A stretch of 64,000 nucleotides of DNA from Octopus vulgaris (taxonomy: Eukaryota), in the NCBI GenBank assembly GCA_951406725.2, contig OX597838.1:5766001-5830000 (forward strand). Direction: 5' to 3'. Each line of letters starts with the position of its first letter. The stretch's first letter is position 1. The position numbers were made by a program, and so were the translations under genes. The notes beneath the pieces are model-generated. The model did no database searches. It was not told the DNA's origin and saw only the letters and a list, made by a program, of their open reading frames with translations. Below are positions 29,115 to 29,650 of the stretch, one piece after another.

Positions 29115-29650
29115 TAGTGGGTGAATGGCCTATTATGGCCGTTCCTTTATTGTTGATGTTGAACTTAAAAATGGTCTATGACTATTTTAATTTTTTCCTA
29201 CTAGGCCGCTGGTGGCAAAAGAATTCTACAAAATTTTTTTTGCCACCCTATATTGATTAATTATGAATTTTCTGGTTAATTCCGTAATGGAATCGACGGC
29301 TTATATTTATTTGCTGCCGATAAATTTGGCGCGAGTGCGACGATTTGAAAATTTTAGGTCAGATATAAACTTGGCAACGTCGGAAATGCCTCGTGAAAAT
29401 ATCTGTTCCGTCTTGGGCTATTTCTTACTGAAGAATCTGAGGGCCTGTGGAAGATTAGCTTGATTTAATTTAATCAGGTTGGTTTACCATTAATCAGCAG
29501 ATGAAACGGTATATCGTATAAGAAATTACAGGGTAAATGTTTTTTAAATTTTCTCCTGGTTTACTGAATTAACTTTTATTTGCGGTTGAAGCTTTGGCTG
29601 TTATTTCTAGTGGGTGAATGGCCTATTATGGCCGTTCCTTTATTGTTGAT
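29115..29650 (+). mobile_element. Retrozyme / non-autonomous Penelope-like element: 493-nt unit plus 43-nt terminal direct repeat
   Basis: An identical 43-mer (tagtgggtgaatggcctattatggccgttcctttattgttgat) lies at 29115-29157 and 29608-29650. Contains one hammerhead and no credible ORF; (TA)n on both sides. Confidence 0.8.
29420..29526 (+). ncRNA. Type I hammerhead ribozyme, complete core, extended helix II
   Basis: Helix I AUUUCUUA (29420-27) / UAAGAAAU (29519-26), 8 bp perfect. CUGAAGA at 29428-34. Helix II AUCUG/CAGAU. GAAA at 29503-06. Helix III ACGG-UAUA-UCGU. GUA triplet, cleavage predicted after 29518. Confidence 0.9.

What the first reader, a model, noticed from the sequence alone, without database searches (positions are those of the whole stretch)
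29115..29650. Candidate retrozyme: 493-nt ORF-less, hairpin-rich unit with a complete hammerhead and 43-nt terminal redundancy
Seen: identical 43-mers 493 bp apart, so the insert is about 1.09 monomers. It holds one textbook type I hammerhead (8-bp helix I, CUGAAGA, AUCUG/CAGAU, GAAA, helix III with near-palindromic CGGUAUAUCG, GUA site). Further hairpins lie at 29165-29190, 29211-29247 and 29617-29636, and a long-range pairing 29274-29287 / 29561-29574 would close off the ribozyme domain. The insert sits in the (TA)n of a SINE. Known: metazoan non-LTR retrozymes are short repeats with type I hammerheads that self-cleave to monomers, circularise, and are thought to use Penelope-like element (PLE) reverse transcriptase; PLE pseudo-LTRs also carry hammerheads and partial tandem ends. 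Inference: this is a cDNA copy from slightly more than one pass around a circular or multimeric RNA of about 493 nt. That is larger than the retrozyme monomers I recall, and I do not know of this family being described in cephalopods.
Basis: partly seen in the sequence, partly recalled or inferred. Interest (0 to 1): 0.92.

Follow-up and report, generated by a model that had tools for sequence, protein, structure and literature searches.

The report
Self-cutting RNA element copied twice
This is one copy of a young jumping RNA element with a self-cutting ribozyme, a known kind, but its many genomic copies record how it is pasted in: apparently two reverse transcriptases copy one RNA from two fixed start points, and a blocked one stutters out short repeats the way telomerase does.

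Summary
Observation confirmed: exact 43-nt repeat 493 bp apart and one type I hammerhead. The unit is a young non-autonomous Penelope-like element (non-LTR retrozyme), a known kind: 182 exact young ends, roughly 1,300 insertions with older subfamilies (estimate), in (TA)n. The 43-nt redundancy is only this copy's 5' truncation; ends are fixed, not permuted. The copies record the mechanism. Most are head-to-head: in 75 of 76 two-armed insertions one arm ends at site A (29157), the other at site B (about 29264), never A/A. The window copy has a missed 14-nt B arm. Both arms share haplotype (0 of 286 discordant) and stop together at the ribozyme cut (p 2e-8), so one RNA is probably copied from both ends of the break. 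Cut linear RNAs and read-through templates both occur; uniform haplotypes per array favour circles. At 25 junctions the arm stalled about 20 nt from the cut end carries up to 13 consecutive extra TTTAAAAAA-type units templated by UUUUUUAAAUUUU: telomerase-like repeat addition, though a repair polymerase is not excluded. The partner enzyme is unidentified; cleavage, circles and expression are untested.

The parts
29040..29102 (.). (TA)n target, left part, at the end of an interspersed repeat (28869-29040)
29103..29116 (-). 14-nt inverted arm ending at start site B (reverse complement of 29251-29264); last 2 nt shared with the long arm as microhomology
   Evidence: same B-type end in 75 of 76 two-armed insertions
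29115..29607 (+). one full 493-nt unit (35% GC), 2 substitutions from the family majority
29123..29157 (+). hairpin 29123-29144 followed by start site A (unit position 43)
29211..29268 (+). hairpin 29211-29247 followed by start site B (unit 140-154, mode 150 = 29264); 107 nt downstream of site A
29420..29526 (+). type I hammerhead with long helix II and self-complementary helix III; predicted cut between 29518 and 29519
   Evidence: 5' ends of genomic copies pile up here
29540..29552 (+). slippery tract U6-A3-U4 that templates the reiterated junction repeats in other copies (not reiterated in this copy)
29608..29650 (+). first 43 nt of the next unit, ending at site A: the fixed 3' end of the long arm
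29651..29814 (.). (AT)n target, right part

Best explanation
A non-autonomous Penelope-like element (non-LTR retrozyme). Inferred cycle: arrays are transcribed; hammerheads, probably as dimers through the self-complementary helix III, cut them to linear monomers, some of which are closed to circles. A Penelope RT/GIY-YIG enzyme supplied in trans breaks a (TA)n tract, and both DNA ends prime on ONE RNA at two fixed internal sites, A and B, each just 3' of a hairpin and with a 2-6-nt AU match to the target. The two cDNAs grow toward the RNA 5' end with A leading. On a cut linear RNA the leader runs to the cut (unit 405); the follower stalls about 20 nt behind at U6A3U4, slips back and adds TTTAAAAAA repeats. 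On a read-through template (probably a circle) each arm can make up to 10 passes. The two cDNA 3' ends are joined by microhomology, giving head-to-head arms with the tail on one side only. Shown in DNA: fixed paired ends, shared haplotype, stop sites, repeats, ribozyme conservation. Inferred: cleavage, circles, single RNA, identity of the polymerase. The window copy (536-nt A arm, 14-nt B arm, one hammerhead) is one such product and cannot release a monomer by itself.
For: Class: 219 matches from 39 of 941 candidates scored; 174 full units differ 0.4% from the majority; B-side flank is (TA)n in 75 of 76. Ribozyme under selection: the only core variants found in more than one locus are at the free N7 position (T in 7 loci, G in 7), none at the GUA in 283 units; older subfamilies and a 467-nt sister family keep all three helices with changed, compensated sequence. 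Paired ends: of 96 insertions picked by site A, 76 have a second arm; 75 end at 140-154, 1 at 424, 0 at A. Of 20 picked by site B, 12 end at an A-type site, 0 at B, 5 have one arm, 3 unresolved (read by eye). Both arms independently templated: B exceeds A by >300 nt in 15 of 76, A exceeds B in 18. Cleavage fossil: stops at 402-410 in 17 of 123 first passes against 1.1% background, 3 of 101 later passes (p 0.004). Monomer re-reading: 22 array-wide haplotypes among 50 multi-unit insertions; in 43 two-armed insertions 32 variants are in all copies, 99 in one copy, and only 2 against 72 are shared between arms in register; 287 read-throughs of the junction carry 1 indel. Repeats: 40 matches at 37 sites genome-wide, reversed control 0; 25 loci examined carry 95 extra units, 72 of them T3A5-7; 23 of 25 on the B arm, and in 21 of those 23 the A arm stops at 403-420; none of 280 internal passes over the same tract gained repeats. 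Intact candidate enzymes exist: 10 of 10 fetched copies of a 781-aa RT+GIY-YIG ORF, 97-99.6% identical, ending in (TA)n.
Against: No experiment: cleavage, circles and expression are untested. Rfam finds no hammerhead and the monomer MFE is not the active fold. Later passes still stop at 402-433 above background (14 of 112 vs 3.9%, p 1e-4), and 13 variants occur in some but not all copies of an array (L038, L032, L065, L067), as multimeric linear templates would give. The sister family has B/B insertions (L189, L059). L222 reiterates on the A arm and L223 probably does; L111 and L226 reiterate without an A arm at the cut. No autonomous element shares sequence with the unit. In vitro, an anole Penelope used uncut RNA and needed no ribozyme cleavage (PMC11167929).
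Confidence: 0.6

Rival explanations
1. Same element, but multi-unit arms are copied from uncut linear multimer transcripts of existing arrays, not from circles.
For: Later-pass stops at 402-433 exceed background; arms of 2.4-3.5 units end at 407-409 (L122, L140); 13 partly shared variants, with L038 in register across arms; precise junctions fit uncut RNA equally.
Confidence: 0.25
2. The two arms come from two sibling RNAs of one transcript (for example two monomers held in a dimeric hammerhead), each with its own RT.
For: Self-complementary helix III favours dimers; shared haplotype and coupled stops would follow; some B arms reach 402-412 (4 of 45 at 402-410).
Against: Does not by itself explain A/B pairing (0 A/A in 76, 0 B/B in 12) or why B stalls near 426 when A lies at 403-420 (21 of 23).
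Confidence: 0.2
3. The junction repeats are made by a host end-joining polymerase (polymerase-theta type templated insertion; recalled knowledge) or by later microsatellite slippage, not by the Penelope RT.
For: Repeats occur only at junctions; 42 of 76 junctions show overlap and 29 carry inserted bases, as in microhomology-mediated joining.
Against: The dominant unit T3A5-7 matches the sense (RNA) strand, not the antisense cDNAs; arm bias 23 of 25; stop at a fixed place that a DNA template would not impose; unit lengths vary within a run and 280 internal copies are unexpanded, against later slippage.
Confidence: 0.3
4. Solo pseudo-LTR of an autonomous Penelope, or DNA fold-back inversion.
For: Architecture (tandem, inverted, one-sided tail) is that of Penelope pLTRs (PMC8557442); 10 of 60 other junctions have near-equal 5' positions on both arms, as fold-back would give.
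Against: 3 of 119 loci have Penelope protein hits and none is continuous with the unit; L132 sits in the (TA)n tail of an unrelated Penelope; each arm can be far longer than the other. Only 150 of 6136 GIY-YIG candidates were scored, so a parent may still exist.
Confidence: 0.07

Closest known systems
Metazoan non-LTR retrozymes (PMC7229834; bioRxiv 10.64898/2026.07.22.740005)
   Same: Short non-coding tandem units, low GC, one type I hammerhead per unit, size in range, co-occurrence with Penelope-like elements.
   Different: In the parts read they are described as tandem arrays; head-to-head twin arms, paired fixed start sites, microsatellite targeting and stop sites at the cut are not described. 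No cephalopod case in the passages read or searches run.
EN+ Penelope-like elements: pLTR, inverted 5' copy and tail (PMC8557442, PMC3846280, PMC11167929)
   Same: Partial tandems, head-to-head inverted copy, tail on one end, AT-rich or (TA)n targets, two internal RT start sites bounding the tail, cutting and extension of both strands in vitro.
   Different: No ORF; tail 107 nt, not 30-40; the two sites are used as an A/B pair on opposite ends; cut RNA is a frequent template here, whereas the anole enzyme used uncut RNA in vitro; PMC3846280 proposed self-priming on an antisense template for the inversions.
L1 twin priming (PMC2837659, abstract)
   Same: Both target strands prime on one RNA and give a 5'-to-5' inversion.
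   Different: Second site is fixed, not opportunistic; both arms can be multimeric; inversion is the rule (76 of 96).
Telomerase and DRT10 repeat addition (PMC12632851, passages)
   Same: A-B-A' template (U6-A3-U4), stop at a 5' boundary, re-annealing, 9-nt repeat; Penelope RTs are the closest eukaryotic relatives of TERT.
   Different: Apparently a by-product of stalling during insertion; error-prone; boundary may be the leading enzyme, not an RNA helix; no function shown.

Membership tests
non-LTR retrozyme | type I hammerhead in each unit | tested here: met
   250 hammerheads matched in the young set, 246 with CUGANGA; descriptor hit in window
non-LTR retrozyme | [quoted passage not shown] | tested here: met
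   arrays up to about 10 units; longest ORF 66 aa. The window copy itself has only one hammerhead
non-LTR retrozyme | self-cleavage | tested here: inconclusive
   indirect only: conservation and 5' ends at the cut; no assay possible
non-LTR retrozyme | accumulates as circular RNA | not testable with these tools
   only contigs were available; a circle and a tandem array give the same junction
Penelope-like element (non-autonomous) | tandem and inverted 5'-truncated copies with a one-sided tail | tested here: met
Penelope-like element (non-autonomous) | terminal sequence shared with an autonomous Penelope | tested here: inconclusive
   no similarity to 33 GIY-YIG loci fetched or to the L132 element; only 150 of 6136 candidates scored
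Penelope-like element (autonomous) | RT plus GIY-YIG ORF | tested here: not met
   no ORF in the unit; none continuous with it in 119 loci
telomerase-type repeat addition | short internal template with alignment and templating segments copied repeatedly | tested here: met
   U6A3U4 and 95 extra units in 25 loci
telomerase-type repeat addition | made by the reverse transcriptase on RNA, at a defined boundary element | not testable with these tools
   inferred from strand sense and arm bias

The most novel reading that the evidence does not exclude
These insertions are an in vivo record that a Penelope-like reverse transcriptase works as an asymmetric pair on one ribozyme-processed RNA (cut monomer or circle), which explains the long-unexplained inverted, tandem and one-sided-tail structure of Penelope insertions, and that when blocked it performs telomerase-like repeat addition on an internal A-B-A' template: the activity expected of the common ancestor of Penelope RTs and telomerase.
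Probability: 0.4. Interest if true: 0.87.

Novelty: new member of a known kind. Interest (0 to 1): 0.7.

Why it matters
How Penelope-like elements build their tandem and inverted insertions is stated as unresolved (PMC8557442), and the role of their hammerhead is unclear because cleavage was dispensable in vitro (PMC11167929). This family gives a quantitative genomic record for both questions and a minimal test system: a 493-nt RNA with mapped start sites, cut site and slippery tract, and intact candidate enzymes in the same genome. It also gives genomic support for the rolling-circle step proposed for retrozymes, and a possible case of repeat addition by the sister group of telomerase.

Tried and rejected
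Rfam: no hammerhead match. Sequencing runs: no RNA holder listed; this says nothing on expression. Four runs laid were contigs only: no starts or ends could be read; one 523-nt contig closing on itself fits a tandem array as well as a circle. An A>G excess in the element's genomic variants (editing of templates) was not significant (25 vs 20 T>C, p 0.07). Partner search: the 781-aa element, two other Penelope-type ORFs and the L132 element share no significant sequence with the unit. Permuted ends rejected. Fold-back as the general cause of inversion rejected. My first reading that 5' ends are random was wrong: it came from the 39 longest-hit loci; the sample picked by site A shows the pile-up at the cut. 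The 7-fold excess of B over exact A ends raised the possibility of B/B insertions; 0 of 12 resolved were B/B, and older A variants explain the excess. Earlier findings of this scan: none returned. A formal pair count on the alignment was not obtained; helices were tabulated by script. Not-in-print searches; the library lacks most subscription journals, and Repbase, Dfam and the supplements of PMC13282606 (not seen) may hold this unit unlabelled.

Full report
Observation. The 43-nt direct repeat (29115/29608, spacing 493) is exact. The hammerhead is as described and is the only hit of a type I descriptor on both strands of the window, although Rfam misses it. The unit folds better than all 100 shuffles (z -4.19). 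The active fold of 29410-29535 is 1.8 kcal/mol above an alternative, and helix III is self-complementary (duplex -15.6 kcal/mol), so dimer cleavage is likely, as reported for axolotl retrozymes (PMC7229834, passages). Unit positions below count from 29115; the cut lies before position 405.

Family. The own genome (2.8 Gb) gave 219 matches from 39 of 941 candidates scored. An exact site-A/(AT)n junction occurs 182 times, reversed control 0. A looser site-B junction has 668 forward matches (the reverse count is redundant), so about 1,300 insertions with older subfamilies is my estimate. 174 full units of the young set differ 0.4% from the majority. Core variants seen in more than one locus are confined to the free N7 base. 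Older subfamilies change the fifth helix II pair from G-C to A-U and the helix III palindrome; a 467-nt sister family changes all three helices and keeps them paired. The ribozyme is therefore under selection.

Samples. Set 1: the 39 best-hit sites (biased to long arrays). Set 2: all 100 listed site-A hits on contigs 1-10, of 182 (20 from set 1, 80); 4 dropped (L125 fetched on the wrong side, L124 at an N gap, L088 and L089 not parsable), leaving 96. Set 3: the first 20 unseen site-B hits on contig 1. Set 4: all 15 unseen repeat-junction sites on contigs 1-9, of 29 unseen genome-wide. Haplotype counts pool sets 1 and 2 without L049, L059 and L125; the in-register tests left out 13 complex or duplicate loci.

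Ends. Of 96, 76 have a second, inverted arm: 75 end at 140-154, one at 424, none at A; two more have a tiny B arm. In set 3, 12 end at an A-type site, none at B, 5 have one arm, 3 are unresolved. In the sister family 8 of 19 are clearly A/B, one is B/B (as is the query locus L059), two have one off-site end, the rest are unresolved (by eye). Both sites lie 13-17 nt 3' of a hairpin and end in AU that matches the target. The window copy fits: a 536-nt A arm and a 14-nt B arm at 29103-29116. The 43-nt redundancy is thus an accident of truncation. Inverted copies, a one-sided tail and two internal start sites are known for Penelope elements (PMC8557442, passages; PMC11167929, parts 1-2 of 4; PMC3846280, passages). 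I found no report that the two sites are used as a pair on opposite ends.

One RNA. Either arm can be much the longer (15 and 18 of 76), which excludes DNA fold-back as the rule. At six polymorphic sites 0 of 286 arm comparisons differ, about 56 expected for independent templates; sites are linked, so this is no p value. Two sibling RNAs remain possible.

Cut and read-through templates. Stops at 402-410 occur in 17 of 123 first passes, 3 of 101 later passes, background 1.1%: cut linear RNA is a frequent template, unlike the anole enzyme in vitro. Other arms cross the junction up to 10 times; 287 crossings show 7 changes nearby and one indel. Fifty multi-unit insertions fall into 22 array-wide haplotypes, and unit-specific variants are shared between arms in register 2 times against 72; both favour re-reading of one monomer, the rolling-circle step proposed in PMC7229834 (Discussion). 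Against this: later passes still stop at 402-433 in 14 of 112 (background 3.9%), and 13 variants are shared by some copies only, so some templates were probably linear multimers. I put circles at about 0.65.

Repeat addition. Junctions often carry extra copies of TTTAAAAAA, the complement of U6A3U4 at 426-438 (29540-29552). The pattern occurs 40 times at 37 sites, control 0. The 25 loci examined hold 95 extra units (1 to 13 in a run; 19 in L087; single units at L102 and L235 are partial), 72 of them T3A5-7. 23 of 25 are on the B arm, and in 21 of these the A arm stops at 403-420; L222 is the mirror case. None of 280 internal passes gained repeats. The simplest reading is a following RT blocked about 20 nt behind a leader at the cut end, slipping on an A-B-A' template as telomerase and DRT10 do; Penelope RTs are the closest eukaryotic relatives of TERT (PMC12632851, passages). 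A host end-joining polymerase is the main rival (0.3). Slippage at the 3' tail of some LINEs is known to me from recall only; searches found no report of repeat addition by a Penelope RT.

Partner. GIY-YIG matches are abundant (148 from 150 of 6136 candidates). Ten of 10 fetched copies of one family have a 781-aa ORF, 97-99.6% identical, with RT (28.9 bits, just under the cut-off) and GIY-YIG, and end in (TA)n; a CX4CxxC motif before the nuclease suggests the Neptune/Nematis type (no tree built). It shares no sequence with the unit, so the partner is unproven. None of 119 loci continues into such an ORF.

Known status. Retrozymes as non-autonomous Penelope derivatives of 51-972 bp are in print (bioRxiv 2026.07.22.740005, parts 1-3 of 5). 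The words ribozyme and retrozyme do not occur in the main text of an octopus repeat annotation (PMC13282606, passages; supplements not seen). Verdict: a new member of a known kind; the value lies in the mechanism its copies record. Interest 0.7.

Noticed in passing
L059:19-510; L182-L201: Older sister retrozyme family, 467-nt unit, 4-6% diverged, 2455 candidates, different helix I/II/III sequences and a GUC site, same two-hairpin tail and (TA)n target.
   Followed up: partly
L169-L178: Young autonomous Penelope-like family, 781-aa intact ORF, long pLTR with internal repeats and only a degenerate hammerhead-like motif, several 3' ends, inserted in (TA)n.
   Followed up: partly
L132 (upstream of the insertion): A second near-full-length Penelope-like element (633-aa open frame, about 58% identical to the 781-aa protein, frame break near its 5' end) whose (TA)n tail received the retrozyme.
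   Followed up: partly
L138, just 5' of the insertion: A different repeat with a minimal hammerhead-like motif adjoins the 5' end and resumes after the (TA)n; possibly another retrozyme or pLTR family.
   Followed up: no
window 29486-29578, runs X1 and X3: A>G differences at about eight sites, absent from run X18 and in 0-2 of about 280-350 young genomic units: possible A-to-I editing of fold-back RNA, but the runs are only guessed to be RNA and no matched DNA exists.
   Followed up: partly
run X18: A run under another organism label holds diverged relatives at very high summed depth, so the family may be far larger in a related species; not a copy number.
   Followed up: no
L116, L134, L104, L054, L071, L148: Other junction stutters: over-long A or T runs at U tracts and short re-copied segments.
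   Followed up: no
L095, L098, L121, L065 and six more: 10 of 60 other two-armed insertions end at nearly the same unit position on both arms, four of them after different numbers of passes; either collision on a circle or palindromic joining.
   Followed up: no
L048 and L049: Two loci 63 kb apart with the same junction and flanks but different unit numbers: segmental duplicate or assembly artefact.
   Followed up: no
window 16393-16768: Tandem pair (period 190) of the interspersed repeat that also flanks the insertion on the right.
   Followed up: no
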